Virus record (IMG/VR): IMGVR_UViG_3300037484_000317
DNA length: 64,000 bases
Direction: 5' to 3' (one strand)
DNA from: a virus
Taxonomy: Duplodnaviria; Heunggongvirae; Uroviricota; Caudoviricetes
Shown: piece by piece, positions 2,868 to 62,102 of the stretch
Position numbering within the stretch: the first letter of the stretch is position 1
How the letters are laid out: each line of letters opens with the position of its first letter
Notes under the pieces: generated by a model
Told to the model about the DNA's origin: nothing
Seen by the model: only the letters and a program-made list of their open reading frames with translations
Database searches by the model: none
Position numbers and translations under genes: made by a program

Positions 2868-3608
2868 ATGGTAAAAGTAACAGGCTCACTTGGTGGACTT
2901 GAATATCGGAAGACTTCCCGAGAGGCAGAGGCTACCGTGAAGAAGGCTACCGTGAAGAAGGCTACCGTGAAGAAGTCCATCGCAGCAACACGAAAGTCTG
3001 CCACGAAGGCCCCAGCAAAGGCCCCAGCAACCCGATCCCAATGGATGCCGGTTTGGGAGGCAGATCCACGAAGTGGCAATCCCTCTGCCGACTACAATCG
3101 GCAAGCTGGGCGAACTACTGCCACACTGCGAAACGCCGTGGACGTTCTTCTCCAGGGGAAGAACGTGGCGTACATCACTCTTTCTGTAGACCACTCGAAG
3201 GTGCTGTCCCAGATTGCATTTGAGCATCTTCAGACTGTTCTGATGGACACCGACGGGGAGTACAAGCTAGGACATACGGGACAGGCAGTGATTTCTAATG
3301 TCAGTCGTGGCAAAGGCCAGTCCCTTCGATTCGTGAGTCTAAGGCAGGTTGCACTGGGGAACCTTCGCGGTCGCTATGAGGTTGTGATCCCAGATCACCT
3401 AGCCTACGAGTCCGTCTCAGAAGAGAATCTGTCTCTGAGGGGAAAGAATGTAGCTATGATTCGAGAGCGTGAAGAGATCCAAAGGAGGGTCGTGGAAATC
3501 CAGACGTCCCTCTCCAGGTTCCAGGATTACCTTGCTCAATGCACGCCCATCCCCCTAGAATCCTCGGATGGTAACGTCAGAGCGCCCCTTCGAGAAGTGT
3601 GTGCATAG
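2868..3608 (+). CDS. hypothetical protein with N-terminal Lys-rich KKATV tandem repeats
   Basis: 246-aa ORF. The ATVKKATVKKATVKK segment is encoded by 15-bp tandem repeats at about 2936-2985, followed by a KAPAKAPA repeat. Confidence 0.5.
   Translation: MVKVTGSLGGLEYRKTSREAEATVKKATVKKATVKKSIAATRKSATKAPAKAPATRSQWMPVWEADPRSGNPSADYNRQAGRTTATLRNAVDVLLQGKNVAYITLSVDHSKVLSQIAFEHLQTVLMDTDGEYKLGHTGQAVISNVSRGKGQSLRFVSLRQVALGNLRGRYEVVIPDHLAYESVSEENLSLRGKNVAMIREREEIQRRVVEIQTSLSRFQDYLAQCTPIPLESSDGNVRAPLREVCA
2936..3035 (+). repeat. 15-bp tandem coding repeat (gtgaagaaggctacc x3.5) plus short gccccagcaaag repeat
   Basis: Direct reading of the sequence; lies inside CDS 2868..3608. Confidence 0.8.
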
Positions 3609-6741: not shown

Positions 6742-7581
6742 ATGAACCACGAGAAGGTATACCAAGAATTGATGAGGACACGTCAGAGTTTGGACCGTAA
6801 GAGCCGAAAGGACGGGTCTTTGGAGCGACACCATATCCGTCCGAAGTGCCTTGGAGGCACTAACGCGAAGGAGAACCTTGTCTACCTGACTCCCCGGGAG
6901 CATTTCCTGGCACACCTGCTGTTGGTCCGATTCCTGACGGGAAAGCCAAAAGCACAAATGTCTTTTGCTCTCCTTATGATGACTCGGAACAACCCGAATC
7001 AAACGAGGATTGTGTCCTCTTGGCAATATGCGGTTGTAAAGAAGGCCATCAGCGAGAATTGCCGTGGATCAAATCATCCGGCGTTTGGTTTAAGGAAAAC
7101 TGAGGCTCAGAAGAAAGTGATCTCAGAGCGGATGTCTGGACCAAACAATCCCCATTACGGACAGATATCCTGGAATCATGGGTTGACGGCGGATACTTCT
7201 CCGATCCTTCGACGGGCCGGAGAGAAGTACAGCCTTTATGTCAAGGAGAACCCTAGTGTTTTGCAAGGACGTTCCCATACGGAAGAGACTCGACAGAAAA
7301 TCAGTAGAGGCCATCTTGGGAAAACGAAGAGCGAAGATCATCTCCAGAAAATTTCCCTTGCTTTAAAGGGCAGGAGCCCCACACGAGAAGCTATTGAAAA
7401 AAGCGCTTTGCTTCATCGCGGGGTCTCGCAAGAGACTCTTGTTTGTCCAAAGTGTTTGAAATCCGGTGGGACAGTCGCGATGAGACGGTGGCATTTCGAG
7501 TTCTGTGGGATTCGAAAGCCCATCTCGGAAGAAACGCGTGAAAAGATGCGTAGGGCGGCAAGGCTTCGGGTTCGAGCGTAA
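6742..7581 (+). CDS. HNH homing endonuclease with NUMOD3-type repeats
   Basis: HHIRPKCLGGTNAKENLVYLTPREHFLAH is an HNH motif. Repeated NHPAFGLRKTEAQKK / GPNNPHYGQ NUMOD-like modules follow. The gene is low-GC relative to its neighbours and freestanding. Confidence 0.75.
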   Translation: MNHEKVYQELMRTRQSLDRKSRKDGSLERHHIRPKCLGGTNAKENLVYLTPREHFLAHLLLVRFLTGKPKAQMSFALLMMTRNNPNQTRIVSSWQYAVVKKAISENCRGSNHPAFGLRKTEAQKKVISERMSGPNNPHYGQISWNHGLTADTSPILRRAGEKYSLYVKENPSVLQGRSHTEETRQKISRGHLGKTKSEDHLQKISLALKGRSPTREAIEKSALLHRGVSQETLVCPKCLKSGGTVAMRRWHFEFCGIRKPISEETREKMRRAARLRVRA

Positions 7582-7588
7582 GAGGCAC

Positions 7589-8020
7589 ATGGAACAGCGA
7601 CGTGTCAAACAAGTGCTAGTAGTCCGCAAAGATTTGCACATGAGATCCGGAAAAATCGCGGCGCAGGCGAGTCACGCTTCGATGAAAGTCCTACTCGACT
7701 TGATGGTTCAATCTGGAACGAGTTTTTTCCCGTTTGCACCATATGCAACAACGAGATCATTGACTCTCTCCCTGGAAGACGGCACACCCCTTCAACTCTG
7801 GCTGGATGGGTCCTTCACGAAGATCGTCGTCTCTGTCAACAGTGAGAGTGAGTTGGATGCTGTCTACCAAAAGGCGCAAGCAGCAGGGCTCTTGTCGGCT
7901 CTCATCGTGGACAACGGATACACGGAGTTTCATGGCGTGCCCACCAAGACCGTAGTGGCAATCGGTCCGGCGTGGGCCGATGAAATCGACCTGATCACTG
8001 GGGGCTTACCTCTCCTGTGA
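7589..8020 (+). CDS. pth2: peptidyl-tRNA hydrolase, PTH2 family
   Basis: KQVLVVRKDLHMRSGKIAAQASHAS matches the PTH2 signature (VLVVRTDL…GKIAAQCSHA). Starts at an internal ATG 8 nt after the HNH stop. Confidence 0.7.
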   Translation: MEQRRVKQVLVVRKDLHMRSGKIAAQASHASMKVLLDLMVQSGTSFFPFAPYATTRSLTLSLEDGTPLQLWLDGSFTKIVVSVNSESELDAVYQKAQAAGLLSALIVDNGYTEFHGVPTKTVVAIGPAWADEIDLITGGLPLL

Positions 8021-28637: not shown

Positions 28638-28924
28638 CGGACTCCCTTTCCGGGGCCAGATGCGGCAAAACGCTGTGCCAGCATCCTTCCAATCACCTCA
28701 CCCCGTTGCTTCAGCTCTTGCATCCTAGATTGGGTCACTGGGTCACAACCATTGAAGGTCGCCCCTGCAAGGAATCCGATGCAGTAACGGTACAGGCCCC
28801 AATTTACGGTGGCCTGATGTAGGTCCCCAGAGGACATGGACACCTTCTGATTGCACGCTCTGCGCAACCTGATAAGCGAGTTGTCCGCATCGTCCAAGGC
28901 GGTCTTGATGTCGTCTTCTCTCAT
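28634..28924 (-). CDS. hypothetical protein
   Basis: 96-aa ORF. Confidence 0.45.
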   Translation of the reverse strand: MREDDIKTALDDADNSLIRLRRACNQKVSMSSGDLHQATVNWGLYRYCIGFLAGATFNGCDPVTQSRMQELKQRGEVIGRMLAQRFAASGPGKGVR

Positions 28925-29259
28925 GGTTGCTTCTTCCCAGCATTTCGCATCTCGGCTGCTTCAAGGGTAAACAGCCACGTCTCGATGCGTTCTTTCGCCT
29001 CTACCAGACCCAGGCCACACTCTTCTCGCAGGATCCTGATTGCCGAGATCTTCGAACTGGTGGAGTTAAAAGGATTCTCCAATCCGAGAGCAACCCGCTT
29101 CACTAGATGGCTCATCCCAGGACGGGGGCCCAGATGGTTCTGGAGTTCGGCTGCTAGTTGTACGTTCGCTGCCTCTGCGTCTCCCACTCGCTTTTTCAGC
29201 TTGCGGATCTCTTCCTTGAGGGCGAGGATCTCAGCTTCGTGGCTACCGAGCATGGTCAT
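28921..29259 (-). CDS. coiled-coil protein with ribosomal L7/L12 C-terminal-like domain
   Basis: KISAIRILREECGLGLVEAKERIE resembles the L7/L12 C-terminal motif (KIAVIKAVR..TGLGLKEAKDLVE). The N-terminus is coiled coil. Confidence 0.5.
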   Translation of the reverse strand: MTMLGSHEAEILALKEEIRKLKKRVGDAEAANVQLAAELQNHLGPRPGMSHLVKRVALGLENPFNSTSSKISAIRILREECGLGLVEAKERIETWLFTLEAAEMRNAGKKQP

Positions 29260-29429
29260 ACAGGAGCCTTTCGTGATCCCAGGTTACCCGATTCGCGGTG
29301 CTCCGCGCACGCTGCACACAGCGGGTCATCCGCAAGTGCGACTTCATCGCAGTGACGCAGCCGTGTCATGCCCCACTCAGCGTTCGTGTCCGTTCGGTAC
29401 TTGACGTACCCCTTACAATGGTTGGTCAT
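29256..29429 (-). CDS. small Cys-rich protein, tandem paralog of 29426..29629 (approximate coordinates)
   Basis: Hand-translated 57-aa ORF MTNHCKGYVKYRTDTNAEWGMTRLRHCDEVALADDPLCAACAEH…. It shares CKGYV(K/R)(F/Y)R…CD…D.LC.ACA.H with the adjacent gene, and its stop overlaps the next gene's ATG. Confidence 0.4.
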   Translation of the reverse strand: MTNHCKGYVKYRTDTNAEWGMTRLRHCDEVALADDPLCAACAEHRESGNLGSRKAPV

Positions 29430-29629
29430 GCGCGAACCTTACGGCAAGAGGAGGCAGAGAAACTCCGCCTCGCGTGGGCAGCACATGCCTTACACAGTCC
29501 ATCTTCAATGGCCAGCCCGTCACAGGGGCGCAATCGGGACTTGCCCCCGAACGCCTCACCCTTGGGGATGCGGAATCTGACGTAACCCTTGCAGGGTCCG
29601 TTGACCACCTCGCTGGGACTTGAATTCAT
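29426..29629 (-). CDS. small Cys-rich protein
   Basis: 67-aa ORF containing CKGYVRFR…CDG…LCKACAAH. Confidence 0.45.
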   Translation of the reverse strand: MNSSPSEVVNGPCKGYVRFRIPKGEAFGGKSRLRPCDGLAIEDGLCKACAAHARRSFSASSCRKVRA

Positions 29630-29635
29630 GTGTGG

Positions 29636-29761
29636 TTACCAGAACTTAGCCAGGAAGTGGCACAGAACGTACAGGCCAGCCACGAACCCCACCACAGTAG
29701 CGACCCCGATGATGTTGATCATCAGCTCGATCGACGTGTACCCTGCGTTCCGCTTGTTCAT
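29636..29761 (-). CDS. 41-aa prepilin/type-IV-pilin-like peptide
   Basis: MNKRNAG|YTSIELMINIIGVATVVGFVAG is a near match to the class-III signal / N-methylation motif (G-F/Y-T-x-I-E-L-hydrophobic). It has its own promoter copy (29790-29832). Confidence 0.45.
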   Translation of the reverse strand: MNKRNAGYTSIELMINIIGVATVVGFVAGLYVLCHFLAKFW

Positions 29762-29789
29762 TGTGTTGTGTCCTTTTGGTTGGTCATCT

Positions 29790-29832
29790 TCCCTACGCCC
29801 TGGTAACGAACGGGCTGGAAGATTTACACGAT
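29790..29832 (-). promoter_or_regulatory. conserved bipartite promoter motif (minus strand) for the pilin-like gene
   Basis: On the minus strand: CGTGTAAA-N14-CGTTACC, then AGGGCGTAGGGAAG, then ATG. Confidence 0.55.
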
Positions 29833-29853
29833 CCGGACGAAAGATTCTCCGAA

Positions 29854-29896
29854 ACGTGTAAGGAGAGGAAGGTCGACCGTTGCCAGGGCGAGGAAG
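29854..29896 (+). promoter_or_regulatory. conserved bipartite promoter motif (plus strand), divergent partner
   Basis: CGTGTAAG-N14-CCGTTGCC AGGGCGAGGAAG precedes the ATG at 29908. Confidence 0.55.
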
Positions 29897-29907
29897 CCGC
29901 ATTCAAA

Positions 29908-30315
29908 ATGAGCCGCAAGTACAAGACCAAGAGAAAGTCGCAGATGGATGCCCAAGTGGCGTACTTATGTAAGTTGCTTGTTCACGCGACGGACCAGCTC
30001 TACTCAATGGCCTTGGAGCGTACATGTGTCAGACCTTATGGTCCGGATGACCCCAGGGCGTTCGAGTGGATGAGTAAGATTCGGCCAGGTGATATGGTCG
30101 TAGAGAAGACCTCATTCAGACTGAACCCCGAAAGACTTGGCCGTATCCTTGCGATAGAAGAAAGCAAGAATTTGTACTGGCTGGTACTGGCTGATGGTCG
30201 GGTTGTCTCCTGGTCAAACTGCTCGTTCGTTCGCATTCCAGACCTTCGACACTGGAGGGGTTTGCCTATGAAGAAGTCGGGGGACCCGGATCCGGACACT
30301 GAGGATTGGGGATGA
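29908..30315 (+). CDS. hypothetical protein
   Basis: Internal ATG (MSRKYKTKRKSQ…) downstream of the promoter motif. Confidence 0.5.
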   Translation: MSRKYKTKRKSQMDAQVAYLCKLLVHATDQLYSMALERTCVRPYGPDDPRAFEWMSKIRPGDMVVEKTSFRLNPERLGRILAIEESKNLYWLVLADGRVVSWSNCSFVRIPDLRHWRGLPMKKSGDPDPDTEDWG

Positions 30316-33058: not shown

Positions 33059-33106
33059 TCGTGTAAAAGTTCTTCTCCGCCCCGTTACTAAGAAGAGAGA
33101 GGTGGC
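33059..33106 (+). promoter_or_regulatory. conserved bipartite promoter motif upstream of ligA
   Basis: CGTGTAAA-N14-CCGTTAC, then AAGAAGAGAGAGGTGG RBS. Confidence 0.55.
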
Positions 33107-33117
33107 CCATTGCCGCC

Positions 33118-35025
33118 TTGGGAGCCCTTGTGACCGAAAGCTCAATCAAAAAGCAGCTCGCCGACGCACTCGCCGACCTCCGCCATGCCTACTACAACAC
33201 GGGCGAGCCTCTCATGGACGATGATGAGTTCGACGCTCTCGTAGAACGCGCTCGTGCCATGGGCCTCGACGTGGATTCGGTTGTAGGGGCCCCCACGGAA
33301 GGGTCCGTTCCCCACAAGACCCCCATGCTGTCCCTTGAAAAGGTGACGACGGCTGAGGGTGTACGGAAGTTCGTGTCGGAGGTCGGTCGCGGGCAGGTCT
33401 TGCTCATCCAGTGCAAGTTCGATGGTGTGAGCCTCTCCCTGCACTACGAGAGTGGCAAGCTTGAGAGGGCCCTGACGCGTGGGGACGGCATGTCGGGCGA
33501 GGACGTGACGCACATCGTTTCGCTCCTGCCCAGCGTGCCCACGGCGCTTCCGGGTGCCGATGCTCCCGGTGCATTCACGGGGGAGATTCGCGGTGAGGTG
33601 GTCATCCACAAGGTGGACCTTCACGCCAAGTTCAAGAACACCCGCAATGCTGTGAGCGGTCTGCTCAACGCCCGAACGAAGTCCCCTGGAGACGCAGCCA
33701 AGTACAAGTGCCGCTTCTACGCATTTGAATTGCTGCATGCTCCCCGAGTAGAGAAGTACAGCCTTAAGGCATGGGGATTCTCTCAGCCCACAGGGTACTC
33801 GTGCACCACCTTCGAGGAGGTCTACGAACACATCCAGACCATCTTGGCGGGGCGCTCGGATCTCCCATACAGCATTGACGGTGTGGTGGTCAAGGTCGTG
33901 GACCTTGAGGTCCGTGCCAAGCTCGGCAATCGAAGCAACTCCCCCCGCTGGGCGTTCGCCTTCAAGCCGGAATCCGAGACGGCTGTGACCCGGCTCAATG
34001 GTGTGACGTGGCAGGTCGGTTCCGGTGGCCAGGTGACGCCTGTAGCCGAGCTGGAGCCCGTGGATCTGATGGGTACTACCATCGCTCGTGCTTCGCTGCA
34101 CAATCCCCTCCAGATTCAGACGCTGGGCATCTGCATCGGCGATGAGGTCGTCATCAAGCGGGCGAATGACGTGATCCCTCAGGTGGTTCGTGTCTCTGTG
34201 CCTGCCGCAGAGCGGGCTAGGATCGTCACACCGTCCGTGTGTCCCGCATGTGCGACGCGTCTCGTGCAGGAAGGCAACAGCCAGCAGGTCCAGTGCCCAG
34301 ATATCAGTGTGTGCCCGGCACAGATCTGTGGCCGCCTTCTCAAGTGGGCAGCACGCCCCGCTGCGGACATGGACGCCATCGGTCCCGTGTGGGTCGAGAA
34401 GTTCGTGGACAGTGGACTGGTGAAGTCCCCCGCTGACTTCTACACCCTGACAGAAGCCAGGCTCTCGGGCCTGGAAGGTATGGGACCGAAAAATCCCGCG
34501 AAGTTCCTCAAGAATATCGAGAAGTCCAAGGCTCTCGGTATGCGTCGGGCTCTCATCGGGTTTGCAATCCACAATGCCAGCGATGGTACAGCCAAGCGTC
34601 TCTGCTGGAACTTCAAGACGGTGGAAGAGGTGGCTACTGCCACTGAGGGACAGCTGATGTCCATCGAAGACATCGGACCTGTCGTCGCAGCGAGCATTCG
34701 ACAGTTTTTCCAGAGCGCAGGGTCGTTGCTCACGGGTCTTCGGACGGCGGGTGTGAACCTCGACCGTCTCCCAGAGGATGCCCCGGCTTCTGCCAATGCC
34801 TCCCTCGTGGGCAAGACCTTCGTGATCACGGGTGCCGTGAGTAATGGCCGCGCAGCCTTCTCCAAGGAGCTGGAGGTGCTTGGCGCCAAGGTGAGTAGCT
34901 CGGTAAGTGCCAACACGACCGCGCTCATCACGGACGATCCTGACGCAACCAGCGGCAAGGCGAAGCAGGCGAGAGACCTGGGCATTCCGTTCCTGACGGA
35001 GGCCCAAGTTCGGGCGATGTTCTGA
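33118..35025 (+). CDS. ligA: NAD-dependent DNA ligase
   Basis: Adenylation motif CKFDGVS (KxDG), an OB/zinc finger CPACATRLVQEGNSQQVQCPD…CPAQ, HhH and C-terminal BRCT-like segments. The start is TTG per the track; a GTG at 33130 is an alternative. Confidence 0.8.
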   Translation: MGALVTESSIKKQLADALADLRHAYYNTGEPLMDDDEFDALVERARAMGLDVDSVVGAPTEGSVPHKTPMLSLEKVTTAEGVRKFVSEVGRGQVLLIQCKFDGVSLSLHYESGKLERALTRGDGMSGEDVTHIVSLLPSVPTALPGADAPGAFTGEIRGEVVIHKVDLHAKFKNTRNAVSGLLNARTKSPGDAAKYKCRFYAFELLHAPRVEKYSLKAWGFSQPTGYSCTTFEEVYEHIQTILAGRSDLPYSIDGVVVKVVDLEVRAKLGNRSNSPRWAFAFKPESETAVTRLNGVTWQVGSGGQVTPVAELEPVDLMGTTIARASLHNPLQIQTLGICIGDEVVIKRANDVIPQVVRVSVPAAERARIVTPSVCPACATRLVQEGNSQQVQCPDISVCPAQICGRLLKWAARPAADMDAIGPVWVEKFVDSGLVKSPADFYTLTEARLSGLEGMGPKNPAKFLKNIEKSKALGMRRALIGFAIHNASDGTAKRLCWNFKTVEEVATATEGQLMSIEDIGPVVAASIRQFFQSAGSLLTGLRTAGVNLDRLPEDAPASANASLVGKTFVITGAVSNGRAAFSKELEVLGAKVSSSVSANTTALITDDPDATSGKAKQARDLGIPFLTEAQVRAMF

Positions 35026-43286: not shown

Positions 43287-43328
43287 CATGTAAATGTTGG
43301 ATCCCCATCCGTTACATGGGTGAGGATC
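43287..43328 (+). promoter_or_regulatory. conserved bipartite promoter motif upstream of the 43333 paralog
   Basis: CATGTAAAT-N13-CCGTTACATGGGTGAGGA, then ATG. Confidence 0.5.
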
Positions 43329-45227: not shown

Positions 45228-46751
45228 ATGAAATTCGACTTCCTCACCCCTGCTGATAAGCCAGCCTGCTATCATGTAGCCAACCCACAGGGTTTGGACG
45301 TCAAGTTGTTTGCGAATCCCAACGTCCTCCTAGAGAAGGATGGGTTCGCGCAGCTCTTTGACTTCCTGGACGTGGCCCGTGCCGTTTCCGACGTGCGGGA
45401 GGCGGAAGTCAAGGGCAGGTTGTCCTACTTTAGGGATGCCCCTGCTGGCATAGACAAGGTCGTTCTGACTCCGGATTTCCACAAGGGGTCTTTCGTTCCT
45501 GTGGGTGTTGTCCTTCGGGCCAATCACTTCGTCATCCCACAGGCCATCGGAAACGACATCTGCTGCGGGATGCGTCTCTTGGTGACGGACATTCCGGTAG
45601 AGGCACTGGATCCCTACTGGCCTGACATCCAGAAGCGGCTACGTGCGATCTTCTTTGCAGGCGAGCGGAATATCCCAATGTCTCCCCGCCAGCGAGAGGC
45701 TGTACTTCGTGAGGGTTTGCCTGGTCTCTTGCGGTTTGCCGAAGACAACGAGAAGACCGGCATTTGGACTCGGTTTGACCGTGCTTCTGAAATGGCCAAC
45801 GTGTCCAGGGCGCACAACAATGGTCAGGTAGAGACTACTCGTCTCTTTGGATTCGAAAAGTTCATCCGCTCTTCCGGAAAGGTGGATGGACGAGATCCTC
45901 AGATCGGATGTGTGGGAGGTGGAAACCACTTTGTGGAGCTGCAACGCATTGATGCTCTCTACTCGTCTCAAGCGCACGAGTGGGGATTGAGCAAGGGATG
46001 TCTGGCTATCATGGTCCACTCCGGGTCTGTGGCGCTGGGTCATACCGTTGGTGGCTACTTCATGGGACGCGCTAAGGAGCTTTTCCCGACGACCGTGAAG
46101 GCTCCGGCAGAAGGCTTCTACCCCATCCCCACAGATGGCCCACTGGCAGATGAGGGACGTTTCTACCTAGACGGGATGGGCAATGCCGCGAACTTCGCTT
46201 TTGCCAACCGCCTCTTTCTTGGGTTGATGGCAGTTCGCGCAATCGAAGAGGCCACAGGGCGCACGGTTTCATCTCGGCTAGTGTATGATGCACCCCACAA
46301 TCTCGTGTTCCACACCGGGAAGAGCATGGTCCATCGGAAGGGTGCCACACCTGCGTACGGCCCTGATGAGAAGGACTACAACGGTCGCCCGGTAATCATT
46401 CCCGGGTCCATGGGGGCGGCTAGTTATCTTCTAGCAGGTCTCGGAAATGAGAACGCTCTTTCGAGCGCATGTCATGGAGCAGGACGGGCTTTGTCGAGAA
46501 GCAAGGCTTCTCATGTGGCTAAGGATGTCTACGAACGTGAGACTGGTGGGCTGCGAATCGTGGGTCCCGTAGACTTCAGGGACCCAGCTCTTTCTCGCCG
46601 ACGGGACATCCTAGATAACTACGAGAAGAGAATGATGGAGGAAGCGCCGTACGCGTATAAGGCTGTGGAGCCTGTAGTTGACTCTGTTGTCGATGCTGAG
46701 ATTGCAACGAGGGTCGCTCGACTCTGGCCCATTTGCACGGTGAAGGGGTAA
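45228..46751 (+). CDS. rtcB: RtcB RNA ligase (long, archaeal/eukaryal-type, 507 aa)
   Basis: GGGNHFVELQ metal-binding motif and the C-terminal HGAGR motif carrying the GMP-attachment His. Confidence 0.8.
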   Translation: MKFDFLTPADKPACYHVANPQGLDVKLFANPNVLLEKDGFAQLFDFLDVARAVSDVREAEVKGRLSYFRDAPAGIDKVVLTPDFHKGSFVPVGVVLRANHFVIPQAIGNDICCGMRLLVTDIPVEALDPYWPDIQKRLRAIFFAGERNIPMSPRQREAVLREGLPGLLRFAEDNEKTGIWTRFDRASEMANVSRAHNNGQVETTRLFGFEKFIRSSGKVDGRDPQIGCVGGGNHFVELQRIDALYSSQAHEWGLSKGCLAIMVHSGSVALGHTVGGYFMGRAKELFPTTVKAPAEGFYPIPTDGPLADEGRFYLDGMGNAANFAFANRLFLGLMAVRAIEEATGRTVSSRLVYDAPHNLVFHTGKSMVHRKGATPAYGPDEKDYNGRPVIIPGSMGAASYLLAGLGNENALSSACHGAGRALSRSKASHVAKDVYERETGGLRIVGPVDFRDPALSRRRDILDNYEKRMMEEAPYAYKAVEPVVDSVVDAEIATRVARLWPICTVKG

Positions 46752-50464: not shown

Positions 50465-50508
50465 TCGTGTAATCCTCCGACCCCCATCCGTTAGTGGGGT
50501 GAGGACAT
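50465..50508 (+). promoter_or_regulatory. conserved bipartite promoter motif
   Basis: CGTGTAAT-N14-CCGTTAG TGGGGTGAGGA, then ATG at 50513. Confidence 0.55.
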
Positions 50509-52870: not shown

Positions 52871-54040
52871 ATGGCACTCTCAGAAATCAGCTCGTCAAAC
52901 GTCCCCGTCAAGATCTGGTCGCCCCTCAAGGACGTCGAGTCGGCAGCGTTGACGCAGCTTCGTAATACGGCCTCTCTTCCGTGGGTCGCACACCACGTAG
53001 CGGTTATGCCCGATGTCCATTTCGGAATCGGAGCGACGGTAGGAAGCGTTGTCGCCATGCGCGGGGCTGTTTCCCCGGCTTGCGTGGGTGTCGACATTGG
53101 CTGCGGAATGGCTGCAATCCGCACCAGTCTCCGCTCGCATGACCTTCCTCACTCCCTGCTTGCACTGCGCACGGACATCGAGACCGCAGTGCCTGTCGCA
53201 CACAACGGGCACAGCAAGGGAATGAGCCCTTATGCCCGCAAGAGTGAGCTGTGGGCAGAGTTCAAGGACTTGCACCCCAAGGTTCAGGACTTGCTCTCCA
53301 AGGCGCAGATTCAGCTTGGCACTCTGGGGGGTGGCAATCACTTCATCGAGATTTGCATTGATACTGAGAAGCGCGTGTGGGTGATGCTGCACTCGGGCTC
53401 GCGGAACATCGGCAAGTCCTTGGCTGAGATCCACATCGCGGTGGCCAAGAAGCTTGAGCACAACCAACCCCTGGTGGACCGAGACCTTGCGGTGTTTCTT
53501 GCGGGCACAAAGGAGATGCAGGACTATCGGCGAGATCTGTACTTCGCACAACGCTACGCGGCTGAGAACCGACAGGTGATGATCTCGCTGGTCAAGGACG
53601 TGATGGTCAAGCACTTCCCGCAGGTCACCTACGACCCGGTGATTGCGTGCCATCATAACTACGTCTCTGAAGAGACGCACTTTGGAGACGATCTGTTCGT
53701 GACTCGCAAGGGTGCCATCTCGGCCCGCAAGGGTGAGCTTGGGATCATTCCTGGCAGCATGGGCACCAAGTCCTACATCGTGAGTGGGCTTGGTTGTGAA
53801 GAGAGCTTCTGCTCGGCTTCGCATGGTGCTGGGCGCCGCATGTCACGAGGTGACGCAAAGCGGCGCTTCACACGAGATGACCTCGAAGAGCAGACGGCTG
53901 GTGTCGAGTGCCGCAAGGACGGGGGCGTGATCGACGAAATCCCAGCTTGTTACAAAGATATCGATCAGGTCATGGCGAATCAAGGCGATCTCGTGGCGAT
54001 CGTACACGAACTGAAACAAGTCCTGTGCGTTAAGGGATGA
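52871..54040 (+). CDS. rtcB: RtcB RNA ligase (short bacterial-type, 389 aa)
   Basis: GGGNHFIEICID and C-terminal SHGAGRRMSR. Confidence 0.8.
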   Translation: MALSEISSSNVPVKIWSPLKDVESAALTQLRNTASLPWVAHHVAVMPDVHFGIGATVGSVVAMRGAVSPACVGVDIGCGMAAIRTSLRSHDLPHSLLALRTDIETAVPVAHNGHSKGMSPYARKSELWAEFKDLHPKVQDLLSKAQIQLGTLGGGNHFIEICIDTEKRVWVMLHSGSRNIGKSLAEIHIAVAKKLEHNQPLVDRDLAVFLAGTKEMQDYRRDLYFAQRYAAENRQVMISLVKDVMVKHFPQVTYDPVIACHHNYVSEETHFGDDLFVTRKGAISARKGELGIIPGSMGTKSYIVSGLGCEESFCSASHGAGRRMSRGDAKRRFTRDDLEEQTAGVECRKDGGVIDEIPACYKDIDQVMANQGDLVAIVHELKQVLCVKG

Positions 54041-56111: not shown

Positions 56112-57374
56112 ATGTCCACCCACATCGTCACTGATCTGGGTTTTGGTGACGGTGGGAAGGGCACCATAGTCGATGCGGATGCGCGTCGCTGTTCGAGTCC
56201 ACCACTTGTGGTGAGGTACAACGGCGGCGCGCAAGCTGGACACAACGTGCATACAGCGGACGGGCGGCACCATACATTCTCACAGTTTGGGGCCGCCACG
56301 TTTGTACCGGGCTCTAGGACGTTGCTTTCGAAGCACTTCATCCTGCACCCGGGTGGGCTCATGGTTGAGAACGAGCACCTTGTCTCGCTTGGCGTTACTG
56401 ACGCCCTCAAGCGTCTCAGTATCGACGCACGAGCGCTGGTCATCACGCCGTATCATCAAGCCGCCAACCGTCTACGGGAAGCTGCTCGTGGTTCGGCTCG
56501 GCATGGCACTTGTGGTTTAGGGATTGGGGAAACGGTCGCCGATTCACTAGAGCACAGGGACGAAGCTTTGCGTGTGGCAGATCTTCTGGACCCCGCAACC
56601 CTTCGGCGAAAACTTTCCTCCGCGTGTGAGAGGATGCACCAGCAGATGCCATTGCCGTGGTCCGTGCGAGCGAACTTTGAGCTATGGCGTACGGCAGATC
56701 TGCTTACGAAGATCGGAAAGTTTCTTCATGTCATCTCCGCAAGTGATGCAGATTCTCAAATCAGAGAGTCAGAGCATGTGATTTTCGAGGGGGCACAGGG
56801 CGTGCTCCTCGATGAGTGGCTTGGGTTCCATCCGCACACAACGTGGAGCACCACGACCACGGCAAACGCTGACGCCATGATTGCGGAGACTGGCCGCACC
56901 GGGCCCGTAGAGCGAATCGGCGTCGTTCGTGCGTACGCAACCCGCCATGGTCAGGGCCCGTTCCCCACGGAGGATGCAGCACTCACAGAGCAGCTCCGCG
57001 ATACCCACAACACGGACACTGGACCTCAGGGCAGCTTCCGTGTCGGTTGGTTTGATGTGCCCCTCACCAAGTACGCATTGAGTGCGTGCCCTGGGATCAC
57101 GTCTCTCGCTGTGACGTGTCTCGATCGTCTTGCAAATGTTCCCGAGTGGTCTGTATGCGAGGCGTACGAAGGGGGAGATCGTCTAGTAGTGAACCACGGG
57201 CATGACCTCGCGTACCAGGAGCAACTGACGCACTACCTCATGGGGTGCACGCCCGTGCTGCGGGGGGTACCCAGTGATGTCCAAGGGTACGTGCGCGAGA
57301 TCGAGCAGTGTACAGGTCTGCCGGTCTCTGTCATTTCGCTGGGCCCCACAGCAGAAGACAAGCGCTGGATTTAG
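56112..57374 (+). CDS. adenylosuccinate synthetase family protein (PurA-like; candidate PurZ)
   Basis: P-loop GDGGKGTIVD (canonical GDEGKGK), VVRYNGGAQAGHNV, TCGLGIGET, FEGAQGVLLD, AYATRHGQGPFPTE, and SLGPTAEDK are collinear with PurA along the whole length. Confidence 0.75.
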   Translation: MSTHIVTDLGFGDGGKGTIVDADARRCSSPPLVVRYNGGAQAGHNVHTADGRHHTFSQFGAATFVPGSRTLLSKHFILHPGGLMVENEHLVSLGVTDALKRLSIDARALVITPYHQAANRLREAARGSARHGTCGLGIGETVADSLEHRDEALRVADLLDPATLRRKLSSACERMHQQMPLPWSVRANFELWRTADLLTKIGKFLHVISASDADSQIRESEHVIFEGAQGVLLDEWLGFHPHTTWSTTTTANADAMIAETGRTGPVERIGVVRAYATRHGQGPFPTEDAALTEQLRDTHNTDTGPQGSFRVGWFDVPLTKYALSACPGITSLAVTCLDRLANVPEWSVCEAYEGGDRLVVNHGHDLAYQEQLTHYLMGCTPVLRGVPSDVQGYVREIEQCTGLPVSVISLGPTAEDKRWI

Positions 57375-59093: not shown

Positions 59094-59427
59094 GTTCCTT
59101 AAACGTTGGGCGGTTCCCGTGAAGCACAAAGAATTCACAGGTGAGTTCTTTTGTCCGTGCGGTTGCGGGCTGGTGTGCAGAGAAGTGCGCTGCGTCCACT
59201 GCGACAAGGTTATGCCTCCCGGGGAGTCCGACTACTACATGGTCCTTCATCCCATTTGGAGTAAGGCCACACATGGCAAAGAGCGTGACGGTCAAATGCA
59301 CTGGGATTGTCTAACTATCCGACTTGCAGGCTTAGGGCACACGCTCACTTTCGCAGATCTGATGGCTCTCCCGATGAACGAAGCCTTCAAGCGCGAAAAG
59401 CTAGAACATCACCCTACGATCATGTAA
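59080..59427 (+). CDS. Cys-rich hypothetical protein
   Basis: FFCPCGCGLVCREVRCVHCD. Confidence 0.4.
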   Translation: MPNSEFLKRWAVPVKHKEFTGEFFCPCGCGLVCREVRCVHCDKVMPPGESDYYMVLHPIWSKATHGKERDGQMHWDCLTIRLAGLGHTLTFADLMALPMNEAFKREKLEHHPTIM

Positions 59428-59462
59428 TCGATCCGACCTCGCCCGTTACCAAGGTGGAGAGC
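59420..59462 (+). promoter_or_regulatory. conserved bipartite promoter motif
   Basis: CATGTAAT-N14-CCGTTACC AAGGTGGAGAG, then ATG at 59466. Confidence 0.55.
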
Positions 59463-62059: not shown

Positions 62060-62102
62060 TCGTGTAAGGAGAGGGCACCTGTCCGTTACCAGGGTGAGGA
62101 CC
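62060..62102 (+). promoter_or_regulatory. conserved bipartite promoter motif
   Basis: CGTGTAAG-N14-CCGTTACC AGGGTGAGGA, then ATG at 62106. Confidence 0.55.

What the first reader, a model, noticed from the sequence alone, without database searches (positions are those of the whole stretch)
29636..29761. 41-aa prepilin-like peptide with its own promoter at the strand-switch
Seen in sequence: MNKRNAG|YTSIELMINIIGVATVVGFVAGLYVLCHFLAKFW. This nearly matches the type IV pilin / pseudopilin class-III leader (positively charged leader, Gly-1, aromatic +1, Thr, x, Ile, Glu+5, then a hydrophobic helix).

The ORF is missed by the 60-aa ORF track. It is the first gene after a consensus promoter copy and sits back-to-back with another promoter.

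Inference: a phage-encoded minimal pilin mimic. It could be processed by host prepilin peptidase and poison or modify type IV pili or T2SS. That could serve superinfection exclusion, receptor masking or twitching modulation. Alternatively it is a tiny membrane peptide that only coincidentally resembles a pilin.
Basis: partly seen in the sequence, partly recalled or inferred. Interest (0 to 1): 0.55.

Follow-up and report, generated by a model that had tools for sequence, protein, structure and literature searches.

The report
Phage mini-prepilin with conserved KFW tail
A real 41-residue phage gene encodes a headless, pilin-like membrane peptide from a large undescribed family of phage peptides sharing an invariant C-terminal tail; it may let phages tamper with host pilus or secretion machinery, which is untested.

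Summary
The ORF is real: minus strand 29761->29636, MNKRNAG|YTSIELMINIIGVATVVGFVAGLYVLCHFLAKFW. It is the first gene after one of two back-to-back copies of a repeated promoter-like motif.

The pilin resemblance is not chance. An exhaustive profile search found about 150 clusters of 37-45 aa peptides. Across 152 members, Gly-1 is kept in 149, Phe/Tyr+1 in 149, Thr+2 in 149 and Glu+5 in 151. The Gly-to-His spacing is 28 residues in 143. All end in Y-V-x-x-H-F-[ILV]-x-K-[FY]-W, then a stop. A profile built without the window peptide scores it at 60 bits. Canonical members, including two Aeromonas phages, pass Pfam N_methyl; the window peptide does not.

The combined motif is almost confined to phage DNA: 2 hits in 185,579 bacterial genomes. 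Genes sit in early, replication or recombination regions and have no conserved partner.

New twist: the C-terminal tail alone marks a larger set of 29-50 aa single-helix phage peptides, and most of these lack the prepilin signal. The tail is therefore probably the working part, and the prepilin signal is the front end of one branch.

Cleavage by prepilin peptidase is likely. Interference with type IV pili or type II secretion is plausible but unproven. No Pfam, NCBIfam, PHROGs, PADLOC or PDB family, and no paper found, describes it.

The parts
29636..29761 (-). 41-aa mini-prepilin ORF (with stop): MNKRNAG|YTSIELMINIIGVATVVGFVAGLYVLCHFLAKFW*
   Evidence: Searches give the sequence. The leave-one-out family HMM scores it 60.0 bits, E 2e-17, against 4.4 bits for the next best of 1818 six-frame segments. 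AlphaFold2 predicts a single helix over residues 10-40, mean pLDDT 89.7.
29741..29761 (-). Predicted cytoplasmic leader MNKRNAG (net charge +2) ending in Gly-1; predicted prepilin-peptidase cleavage after Gly7
   Evidence: Read directly from the sequence. Gly-1 is present in 149 of 152 family members. That cleavage follows the conserved Gly comes from PMC4471445. Cleavage of this peptide is inferred, not shown.
29660..29740 (-). Mature residues 1-27 (YTSIELMINIIGVATVVGFVAGLYVLC): pilin alpha1N-like hydrophobic helix with Glu5 and Tyr24
   Evidence: Family statistics are. Mean Kyte-Doolittle hydropathy is 1.79. The family profile matches MshA, PilA and Geopilin chains in PDB over profile positions 1-26 only.
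29636..29659 (-). Invariant C-terminal tail HFLAKFW plus stop codon, the signature of the wider peptide set
   Evidence: H, F, K and W are invariant, and a stop follows W directly in 150 of 152 members. The same tail occurs in more than 120 IMG/VR loci, most without a prepilin motif. Synonymous codons and all three stop codons are used.
29771..29775 (-). Shine-Dalgarno-like AAGGA, 10 nt upstream of the ATG
   Evidence: Read from the sequence. Its function is inferred.
29758..29787 (-). 9-codon upstream ORF (MTNQKDTTQ*) placed where other promoter copies have their gene start; its TGA overlaps the peptide's ATG (ATGA)
   Evidence: Read from the alignment of motif copies. Translational coupling is an inference.
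29802..29832 (-). Promoter-like motif copy (ATCGTGTAA-N15-CGTTACC) pointing at the peptide gene
   Evidence: The pattern has 11 matches, comprising 10 gene-oriented copies, against 1.07 expected. No shuffle out of 100 reached that count. The copies are aligned.
29853..29894 (+). Divergent copy of the same motif, followed by GAGGA and the ATG at 29908 of the first rightward gene
   Evidence: (repeat family D2).
29256..29629 (-). Two paralogous Cys-rich small genes (67 aa and 57 aa) immediately downstream in the same leftward operon
   Evidence: ORFs are listed. The two proteins are 44% identical, E 4e-12. Neither has a Pfam hit.

Best explanation
The ORF is a genuine, probably early-expressed gene of a large uncultivated phage. 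It encodes a 41-residue 'headless prepilin'.

Proposed mechanism, step by step:
1. The basic leader MNKRNAG stays in the cytoplasm.
2. The rest inserts as a single N-in/C-out helix in the inner membrane.
3. The host type IVa/T2SS-class prepilin peptidase (PilD/GspO type) cuts after Gly7 and probably N-methylates Tyr1.
4. This leaves a 34-residue peptide that is essentially a pilin alpha1N helix, with Glu5 and Tyr24. It ends in the invariant tail H-F-L-A-K-F-W-COOH at the periplasmic face.
5. The prepilin front end delivers the peptide into the pool of pilin subunits at the type IV filament assembly platform.
6. Because it has no globular head, its tail jams or mis-primes assembly of type IV pili and/or the T2SS pseudopilus.
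7. The benefit to the phage would be early host takeover, exclusion of pilus-dependent competitors, or protection of progeny.

Status of each part:
- Shown: the gene, its family membership, protein-level selection on both the prepilin signal and the tail, restriction of the combined motif to phage DNA, location in early-type regions, and absence of a phage partner gene.
- Inferred: membrane topology, cleavage and methylation, and expression timing.
- Hypothetical: the pilus/T2SS target and the benefit to the phage.
For: - Family size: the exhaustive profile search returned about 147 of its top 150 hits as 37-108 aa proteins matched end to end.
- Conservation in 152 members: Gly-1 149, F/Y+1 149, Thr+2 149, Glu+5 151, Leu+6 132. 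The Gly-to-His distance is 28 in 143 members, and a stop follows W directly in 150.
- Independent membership test: a leave-one-out HMM gives 60 bits, E 2e-17.
- Canonical members pass Pfam PF07963 (22.1 and 29.3 bits against a 21.2 cutoff). TIGR02532 is passed by one member (23.6) and only just reached by the other (16.3), against a 16.3 cutoff.
- The family profile matches MshA, PilA and Geopilin N-termini in PDB.
- Gly-1 is essential for processing. Glu5 is dispensable for processing but needed for assembly and methylation (PMC4471445). Near-invariant Glu5 therefore argues for engagement beyond cleavage.
- Protein-level selection: synonymous codons vary at invariant residues, and the loci span 27-62% GC.
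- Phage restriction: the combined N-terminal plus tail pattern has 2 hits in 185,579 species genomes. Both are prophage-like elements of about 65 kb in Paraburkholderia. The same pattern has 24 hits in IMG/VR and 81 in metagenomes.
- No conserved neighbour gene across 92 to 164 loci, so the target is presumably a host component.
- Early-type context: by synteny, the copy in Aeromonas phage TS3 lies in the region corresponding to the T5 first-step-transfer region. Recurrent neighbours elsewhere are Erf, RecE-like exonuclease, primase/helicase and NinG.
- In the window it is the first gene after a repeated promoter-like motif.
- Precedents: the 30-aa N-in membrane peptide PfsE blocks T4P via PilC (PMC8764522). 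Phage FimU and truncated 60-aa phage PilA are reported in PMC12952977.
Against: - No experiment or structure links this peptide to PilD, pili or T2SS.
- The window peptide misses the curated prepilin thresholds.
- In the IMG/VR sample, 75 of 85 new distinct tail-bearing ORFs lack any prepilin motif. The shared activity therefore cannot require being a pilin, and the target may have nothing to do with pili.
- The host of this phage is unknown, so the presence of a PilD-type peptidase is assumed.
- The tail has no detectable similarity to anything in PDB, Pfam, PHROGs, NCBIfam or PADLOC.
Confidence: 0.45

Rival explanations
1. Tail-centred effector unrelated to pili. The working part is the single transmembrane helix plus the Y-x3-HFxxKFW-COOH tail. 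It acts on some other conserved envelope target, for example the division or elongation machinery in the manner of a Kil-like takeover peptide, or an inner-membrane channel used for DNA entry by superinfecting phages. In this branch the prepilin signal only provides SRP/Sec targeting and removal of the charged leader. That would yield a peptide of 34 aa, similar in size to the leaderless members of 29-36 aa.
For: - Most tail-bearing peptides have no prepilin motif, yet they keep invariant Y, H, F, K, F and W and a similar size.
- Intermediate forms exist, such as MKGFTTAAL... and MKKQRGATLIEL....
- Recurrent neighbours are recombination genes such as Erf and RecE-like exonuclease. From my own knowledge, that is where lambda and P22 carry kil.
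- There is no pilus-related neighbour anywhere.
Against: - A pure targeting role does not explain near-invariant Glu5, Thr2 and Leu6. Glu5 is not needed for cleavage (PMC4471445), and a charged residue inside a membrane helix is costly.
- The subfamily reproduces the exact pilin consensus FTLIEL rather than a generic anchor.
Confidence: 0.3
2. Decoy substrate. The peptide is made in excess early in infection and competitively occupies the prepilin peptidase. Host pilins and pseudopilins then stay unprocessed, and all type IV filaments (T4P, T2SS, competence pili) shut down. The peptide itself does not enter any filament.
For: - The recognition elements for the peptidase are perfectly conserved, including Gly-1 and a short basic leader.
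- The gene is small, placed first after a promoter-like motif, and is in early regions.
- There is no partner gene.
Against: - It does not explain the invariant tail at the opposite membrane face from the peptidase active site, which is cytoplasmic (PMC10191384).
- It does not explain the conservation of Glu5.
- It does not explain the tail-only relatives.
- A cleaved substrate is a weak inhibitor unless product release is slow.
Confidence: 0.1
3. Lysis or membrane-permeabilising peptide. It would be a holin, antiholin or pinholin-like protein, or a depolarising peptide, whose activity is timed by removal of the leader.
For: - It is a single short transmembrane helix.
- It has conserved His and Lys near one membrane face.
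- Small single-TM holins exist (my own knowledge).
Against: - No endolysin, spanin or holin neighbours were seen in the loci examined. The recurrent neighbours are replication and recombination genes.
- The positions are early or pre-early by synteny, and in the window it is the first gene of an operon of small unknown genes.
Confidence: 0.05
4. Not a gene, or a coincidental resemblance in a spurious small ORF.
For: - It is only 41 codons.
- There is no hit to the curated prepilin models for this sequence.
Against: - The leave-one-out HMM gives E 2e-17.
- There are hundreds of homologues with protein-level conservation across 27-62% GC.
- The identical protein is called in JGI and ENA data.
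Confidence: 0.01

Closest known systems
Type IVa pilins, MSHA pilins and T2SS pseudopilins (PilA, MshA, GspG): class III signal peptide, Pfam PF07963, TIGR02532
   Same: It shares the short basic leader ending in Gly, F/Y at +1, Thr at +2, Glu at +5 and a hydrophobic alpha1N helix. The family profile aligns to MshA, PilA and Geopilin over profile positions 1-26. Canonical family members pass the curated models.
   Different: The mature peptide is only 34 residues. It has no alpha1C and no globular head, and ends instead in the unique HFxxKFW tail. The combined motif is almost absent from bacterial genomes. It is never seen next to pilus genes. The window peptide itself falls below the model thresholds.
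Geobacter PilA-N (Geopilin domain 1), a naturally truncated pilin of about 60 residues
   Same: It is a pilin reduced largely to the N-terminal helix, and it is among the best PDB matches (9egp and 7tgg).
   Different: Geopilin is a bacterial protein. It retains alpha1C, pairs with a separate PilA-C head protein (PMC10191384), and lacks the KFW tail.
Phage-encoded pilins: P-FimU of Pseudomonas F10-like prophages, and the P-PilA groups including a truncated PilA of about 60 residues in six virulent Pseudomonas phages (Sztanko et al. 2026, PMC12952977)
   Same: These are phage genes that imitate type IV pilus subunits. The authors propose that the truncated, headless versions either incorporate into pili or block assembly to stop superinfection, which is the same logic as proposed here.
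   Different: P-FimU proteins are full-length minor pilins that are shown to incorporate into pili. The 60-residue PilA fragments are untested. The PHROG families matched here (phrog_13280, phrog_10597) align only to the N-terminus, and none of these proteins carries the HFxxKFW tail. The present family is shorter, spans very different phage types, and belongs to a wider set of tail-bearing peptides that mostly lacks the pilin signal.
PfsE of Pseudomonas filamentous phage Pf4 (Schmidt et al. 2022, PMC8764522)
   Same: It is a tiny (30 aa) N-in single-helix phage peptide with a conserved aromatic cluster (YxWGW). It blocks type IV pili by binding PilC and gives superinfection exclusion. It is a functional precedent for how the tail could work.
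   Different: PfsE has no prepilin signal and a different aromatic motif. It is restricted to Pf prophages. Sequence similarity to PfsE was not tested here.
Pilins of the archaeal provirus SNJ2 (Xiang et al. 2025, PMC12426801)
   Same: These are virus-encoded type IV pilins that hijack host processing and assembly machinery.
   Different: They are full pilins that build functional filaments in a haloarchaeon. They are not headless peptides.

Membership tests
Class III signal peptide / type IV prepilin (definition in PMC10191384 and PMC4471445) | Hydrophilic leader peptide that ends in Gly (or Ala) | tested here: met
   The leader is MNKRNAG with net charge +2. Gly-1 is present in 149 of 152 relatives.
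Class III signal peptide / type IV prepilin | About 20-25 mainly hydrophobic residues after the cleavage site that form an alpha-helix, usually with Glu at +5 | tested here: met
   The segment is YTSIELMINIIGVATVVGFVAGLYVLC, with mean hydropathy 1.79. AlphaFold2 predicts a helix over residues 10-40. Glu5 is present, and is kept in 151 of 152 relatives.
Class III signal peptide / type IV prepilin | Score at or above the curated cutoffs of Pfam PF07963 (21.2 bits) and TIGR02532 (16.3 bits) | tested here: not met
   The window peptide gives no PF07963 or TIGR02532 hit even at E<=10. Its relatives do better: Ahp1 scores 22.1 and 16.3 bits, and TS3 scores 29.3 and 23.6 bits.
Class III signal peptide / type IV prepilin | PROSITE PS00409 pattern, as I recall it: [KRHEQSTAG]-G-[FYLIVM]-[ST]-[LT]-[LIVP]-E-[LIVMFWSTAG](14) | tested here: not met
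   A regex of the pattern does not match the window peptide, because of S at +3 and N at +9. It matches 38 of 144 family members. The pattern was taken from memory.
Type IV pilin (structural subunit) | 'Lollipop' architecture: an alpha1 helix of about 50 residues whose C-terminal half packs against a globular head | tested here: not met
   The mature peptide would be 34 residues, forming a single helix with no head. The PDB matches stop at profile position 26-27.
Type IV pilin (structural subunit) | Cleavage and N-methylation by a prepilin peptidase, and polymerisation into a filament | not testable with these tools
   This needs mass spectrometry in hosts with and without pilD, and pilus preparations.
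Mini-prepilin subfamily with the HFxxKFW tail (defined here) | Length 37-45 aa; G-1, F/Y+1, T+2 and E+5; exactly 28 residues from Gly-1 to His; C-terminus Y-x3-H-F-[ILV]-x-K-[FY]-W followed by a stop | tested here: met
   All features are present: G7, Y8, T9, E12, Y31, H35 and W41 followed by a stop. The leave-one-out HMM gives 60.0 bits, E 2e-17.
Wider set of phage single-helix peptides with the Y-x3-HFxxKFW-COOH tail (defined here) | A 29-50 aa single hydrophobic helix ending in the invariant tail, encoded in phage DNA | tested here: met
   The tail-only HMM scores the window ORF 28.7 bits, E 1.3e-7. Note that this HMM alignment (A5) includes the window peptide's own C-terminal 28 residues as one of its 40 rows, so it is not an independent test. 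It is the only hit in the window. The wider set is documented.
Holin or lysis-cassette small membrane proteins | Location next to endolysin or spanin genes, with late expression | tested here: not met
   The neighbours are small unknown genes, DUF3228, an HTH protein and NUDIX in the window. In other loci they are Erf, exonuclease, helicase and NinG. Expression timing was not measured.
PfsE-like T4P inhibitors | Binding to PilC and suppression of twitching; the YxWGW motif | not tested
   No interaction assay was possible and no sequence comparison with PfsE was run. The resemblance is only in size, predicted topology and an aromatic cluster (PMC8764522).

The most novel reading that the evidence does not exclude
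Phages of many unrelated types carry an undescribed set of inner-membrane peptides of about 30-40 residues, whose invariant Y-x3-H-F-x2-K-F-W-COOH tail is a warhead against a conserved host envelope machine. One branch, including this gene, has captured the class III prepilin signal. The host's own prepilin peptidase then matures it into the smallest known pilin-like protein, a 34-residue 'headless pilin'. The peptide is fed into, and jams, type IV pilus or T2SS assembly. This would be a general early-infection strategy for takeover or superinfection exclusion.
Probability: 0.3. Interest if true: 0.8.

Novelty: new variant of a known kind. Interest (0 to 1): 0.7.

Why it matters
If the peptide is a prepilin-peptidase substrate that interferes with type IV filaments, three things follow.
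- It would be the minimal natural pilin, a 34-residue alpha1N helix plus a 7-residue tail. That makes it a ready-made probe of what the assembly platform and peptidase recognise.
- It would add a widespread lytic-phage counterpart to the few known pilus-targeting phage proteins (PfsE, Tip, Aqs1, P-FimU).
- It could be a template for peptide inhibitors of pili and type II secretion, which are virulence factors.

Whatever the mechanism turns out to be, the search uncovered a large, strongly conserved family of tiny phage proteins that is almost entirely unannotated. The copy in Aeromonas phage TS3 is not annotated in GenBank at all. This shows how much conserved biology sits below usual ORF-length cutoffs. 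Two cultured Aeromonas phages carry it, so the hypothesis can be tested directly.

Tried and rejected
- Megablast of 6 kb around the locus against GenBank phages found no match. The only cultured relative of a neighbouring gene is Microcystis phage MaAM05, at 46% identity. Its syntenic small ORF is unrelated.
- The single-sequence homology search returned only the query itself.
- tblastn with an artificial consensus peptide and with two tail-only peptides found nothing, possibly because of low-complexity masking.
I replaced it with degenerate DNA patterns.
- A 28-residue tail alignment was too short for the protein search.
- Host identification failed. The window has no tRNA genes. The PurA/PurZ-like gene hits mainly mycobacteriophages at 41% identity.
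- PADLOC, PHROGs, Pfam, NCBIfam and PDB have no model or structure for the tail.
- No conserved partner gene was found, so a two-component phage system is rejected.
- Lysis-cassette membership is rejected on genomic context.
- Seven literature searches found no description of this family.
- I did not run a fold search on the AlphaFold model, because a lone helix gives meaningless matches.

Full report
1. The observation

The minus strand from 29761 to 29636 encodes MNKRNAGYTSIELMINIIGVATVVGFVAGLYVLCHFLAKFW followed by TAA. The mechanical ORF list extends the same frame to an upstream ATG at 29902, giving 88 aa. That extension runs across the divergent control region. All relatives have only a 4-9 residue leader, so the 41-aa start is preferred. 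An AAGGA lies 10 nt upstream of it.

A relaxed prepilin motif occurs once in the six-frame translation of the window, against a mean of 0.1 in shuffles.

The identical protein is already called in JGI and ENA metagenome data, on a contig of 160,816 bp.

2. Genomic setting

The window is part of a large uncultivated phage.
- It carries an NAD-dependent ligase, two RtcB paralogues, a PurA/PurZ-like synthetase and a sliding clamp.
- GC content is about 56%.
- It has no close relative among 50,697 GenBank phage records.
- One neighbouring gene, a DUF3228 protein, is 46% identical to a gene of Microcystis phage MaAM05.

Transcription diverges at about 29.8 kb. A motif (a/t)TCGTGTAA-N16-CCGTTAC, usually followed by GGTGAGGA and an ATG, has 10 gene-oriented copies. 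Only about 1 is expected by chance. Two copies sit back to back here:
- 29828->29804 on the minus strand, pointing at the peptide gene;
- 29857-29882 on the plus strand, pointing at the gene that starts at 29908.

No sigma-70-type promoter-like site was found on the peptide's (minus) strand; the single weak match, 9 of 12 positions, lies on the plus strand. The motif's promoter function is inferred. From my own knowledge, its two blocks and 16-nt spacing resemble promoters used by ECF-type sigma factors.

The peptide gene is the first real gene of the leftward operon. It is followed by two paralogous Cys-rich genes and several genes of unknown function.

In the peptide's copy of the motif, the usual gene-start position is occupied by a 9-codon ORF. 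Its TGA stop overlaps the peptide's ATG.

3. Relatives

tblastn found two cultured phages carrying near-canonical versions.
- Aeromonas phage Ahp1_CNU-2021 (Straboviridae): MKNMKQTGFTLIEMIFAIFGLASLIGAGFGVYAIVHFVTKYW.
- Aeromonas phage vB_AdhS_TS3 (Demerecviridae): MKRAKGFTLIELIFCILALGLLGGGGYVVIHFIAKFW. This copy is not annotated in GenBank.

Both pass Pfam N_methyl; TS3 also passes TIGR02532 and Ahp1 scores exactly at its cutoff. The window peptide does not pass either model.

A profile of eight members was searched against 1.84 billion representative proteins. About 147 of the top 150 hits are 37-108 aa proteins, mostly 40-41 aa, matched end to end.

Conservation across 152 members:

| Feature | Members with it (of 152) |
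|---|---|
| Gly-1 | 149 |
| Phe/Tyr+1 (Tyr in 47) | 149 |
| Thr+2 | 149 |
| Glu+5 | 151 |
| Leu+6 | 132 |
| Gly-to-His distance exactly 28 | 143 |
| Tyr four residues before His | 122 |
| Stop directly after the final W | 150 |

A profile built without the window peptide scores it 60.0 bits, E 2e-17. The next best of 1818 six-frame segments scores 4.4 bits. The window peptide's unusual Tyr+1 and Ser+3 are both normal within the family.

Invariant residues use all synonymous codons, and all three stop codons occur. Carrier loci range from 27 to 62% GC. Selection is therefore on the protein.

4. Distribution and context

I used a degenerate DNA pattern for G-[FY]-T-x2-E-x22-H-F-x2-K-[FY]-W-stop. 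Its hits were:
- 2 in one genome each of 185,579 bacterial and archaeal species. Both are Paraburkholderia and lie inside prophage-like elements of about 65 kb, next to a RecE-like exonuclease, a methyltransferase and an HNH gene.
- 24 in IMG/VR viral contigs of 5-353 kb.
- 81 in metagenome contigs.

Clustering of neighbouring genes over 92 and then 164 non-redundant loci found no gene that travels with the peptide. The recurrent co-directional neighbours are Erf-like annealing proteins, RecE-like exonucleases, primase/helicases and NinG/Rap. These are early replication and recombination regions, not lysis or structural modules.

In TS3 the gene lies at 7483-7593. This is in the rightward block that corresponds by synteny to T5.011-T5.017, inside the T5 first-step-transfer region, which is the first DNA to enter the cell. 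That placement is a positional inference.

5. Comparison with pilins

The family profile matches solved MshA, PilA and Geobacter PilA-N chains, but only over the leader and the first 20 or so mature residues. AlphaFold2 predicts one continuous helix over residues 10-40, with pLDDT 89.7.

By the published definition of a class III signal peptide (PMC10191384, PMC4471445), the peptide qualifies. As a pilin subunit it does not, because it has no alpha1C and no head.

According to PMC4471445:
- Gly-1 is absolutely required for processing.
- Glu5 is always dispensable for processing, but is needed for homopolymer assembly and, in T4P, for methylation.

The near-invariance of Glu5, a charged residue inside a membrane helix, is therefore the strongest computational hint that these peptides do more than get cleaved.

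From my memory of PAK pilin numbering, the invariant Tyr falls at mature position 24, where type IVa pilins also carry a conserved Tyr. I did not test this.

6. The unexpected part

The 462-kb uncultured phage LR756500 carries ...IIYIAFHFISKFW* without any G-F-T-x-x-E motif. This prompted a scan of IMG/VR for the tail alone (Y-x3-H-F-x2-K-F-W-stop).
- Of 85 new distinct ORFs, 75 lack a prepilin motif. Nearly all are still single-helix peptides ending in the same tail; among the 58 I could trim to a start Met, lengths are 29-50 aa.
- Examples are MRNYLGCAVYFFLGGLFWYIVIHFIIKFW and MKKILFIWGLFASLVVMFWALIAYVIVHFIKKFW.
- Their commonest lengths are 29-36 aa, which bracket the 34 aa predicted for the cleaved window peptide.
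- Intermediate forms exist, for example MKKQRGATLIEL... and MKGFTTAAL....
- One locus (L211) carries two copies.

No Pfam, PHROGs, PADLOC or PDB entry matches the tail. A final protein search returned only unnamed metagenomic proteins.

The conserved core is therefore a membrane helix plus the tail. The prepilin signal is the front end of roughly a quarter of the members in this sample.

7. Mechanism

Most likely (about 0.45):
- The leader holds the N-terminus in the cytoplasm.
- A PilD/GspO-type peptidase removes it, and probably methylates Tyr1.
- The 34-residue product joins the membrane pool of pilin subunits.
- Lacking a head, it interferes through its tail with assembly of type IV pili and/or the T2SS pseudopilus.

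Two precedents make this reasonable.
- PfsE is a 30-aa N-in peptide with an aromatic cluster that blocks T4P through PilC (PMC8764522).
- Sztanko et al. reported P-FimU, and 60-residue truncated PilA genes in virulent Pseudomonas phages. They proposed that the truncated forms either incorporate into pili or block assembly (PMC12952977).

Main rival (about 0.3): the tail acts on a different envelope target, and the prepilin signal is only a targeting and processing device. The abundance of tail-only members favours this rival. The strict retention of Glu5, Thr2 and Leu6 argues against it.

Less likely are a pure decoy substrate for the peptidase (0.1), a lysis peptide (0.05) and a spurious ORF (0.01).

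8. Novelty and verdict

Phage-encoded pilin mimics and tiny pilus-inhibiting phage peptides are known kinds. This family has a 34-residue mature 'headless pilin', an invariant KFW tail, and links to a larger set of tail-bearing peptides. I did not find it in Pfam, NCBIfam, PHROGs, PADLOC, PDB or seven literature searches. I rate it a new variant of a known kind.

Its interpretation is partly supported: the resemblance is selected rather than coincidental, but the function is unproven and the tail is probably the key part. The hypothesis can be tested directly in Aeromonas with phages TS3 and Ahp1.

Noticed in passing
window, minus strand: 17342->17317, 17878->17853, 28075->28050, 29828->29804; plus strand: 29857-29882, 33062-33087, 43289-43314, 50468-50493, 59423-59448, 62063-62088: A repeated promoter-like motif, (a/t)TCGTGTAA-N16-CCGTTAC-(cag)GGTGAGGA-N4-8-ATG, has 10 gene-oriented copies against about 1 expected. 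It is not sigma-70-like. From memory, its TGTAA / 16-nt spacer / CGTTA layout resembles ECF-type sigma factor promoters, which suggests a phage-encoded or hijacked alternative sigma factor. I did not look for a sigma factor gene.
   Followed up: partly
window 29758-29787 (-): A 9-codon upstream ORF (MTNQKDTTQ*) sits exactly where other motif copies have their gene start. Its TGA stop overlaps the peptide's ATG (ATGA). This may be translational coupling or a leader peptide.
   Followed up: no
window 29426-29629 (-) and 29256-29429 (-): Two tandem paralogous small Cys-rich proteins (CKGYV...C...CxAC), 44% identical with E 4e-12, lie directly downstream of the peptide. Neither has a Pfam hit. One metagenomic family member (P0108) has a Cys-rich N-terminal extension fused in frame to the mini-prepilin.
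   Followed up: partly
IMG/VR loci L120-L224; L119 (LR756500.1 455686-458772); L211 has two copies: A large undescribed set of 29-50 aa phage single-helix peptides ends in the invariant Y-x3-H-F-x2-K-F-W-stop. Most have no prepilin signal.
   Followed up: partly
L036 (Aeromonas phage vB_AdhS_TS3, OP820700.1) 7483-7593: The TS3 family member is not annotated in the GenBank record. By synteny it lies in the region corresponding to the T5 first-step-transfer (pre-early) region.
   Followed up: yes
window 45228-46751 (+), 52871-54040 (+), 56112-57374 (+), 33118-35025 (+): The phage carries two RtcB-type RNA ligase paralogues, a PurA/PurZ-like adenylosuccinate synthetase (41% identical to those of mycobacteriophages) and an NAD-dependent DNA ligase. 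The PurZ-like gene raises the possibility of modified (2-aminoadenine) DNA. I did not examine this.
   Followed up: no
window 2929-2982 (+): There are three and a half tandem copies of a 15-nt unit (AGGCTACCGTGAAGA) inside the ORF at 2868-3608. This is probably a short peptide repeat.
   Followed up: no
window 28921-29259 (-): The 112-aa protein in the same operon has a weak, sub-threshold match to the ribosomal L7/L12 C-terminal domain (24.6 bits against a 25.9 cutoff).
   Followed up: no
L010/L020 and L011/L031 (Paraburkholderia antibiotica and P. panacisoli): The only bacterial-genome hits of the full motif lie in prophage-like elements of about 65 kb. These belong to a group of related IMG/VR contigs of 64-69 kb. 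Paraburkholderia is therefore a second tractable host genus.
   Followed up: partly
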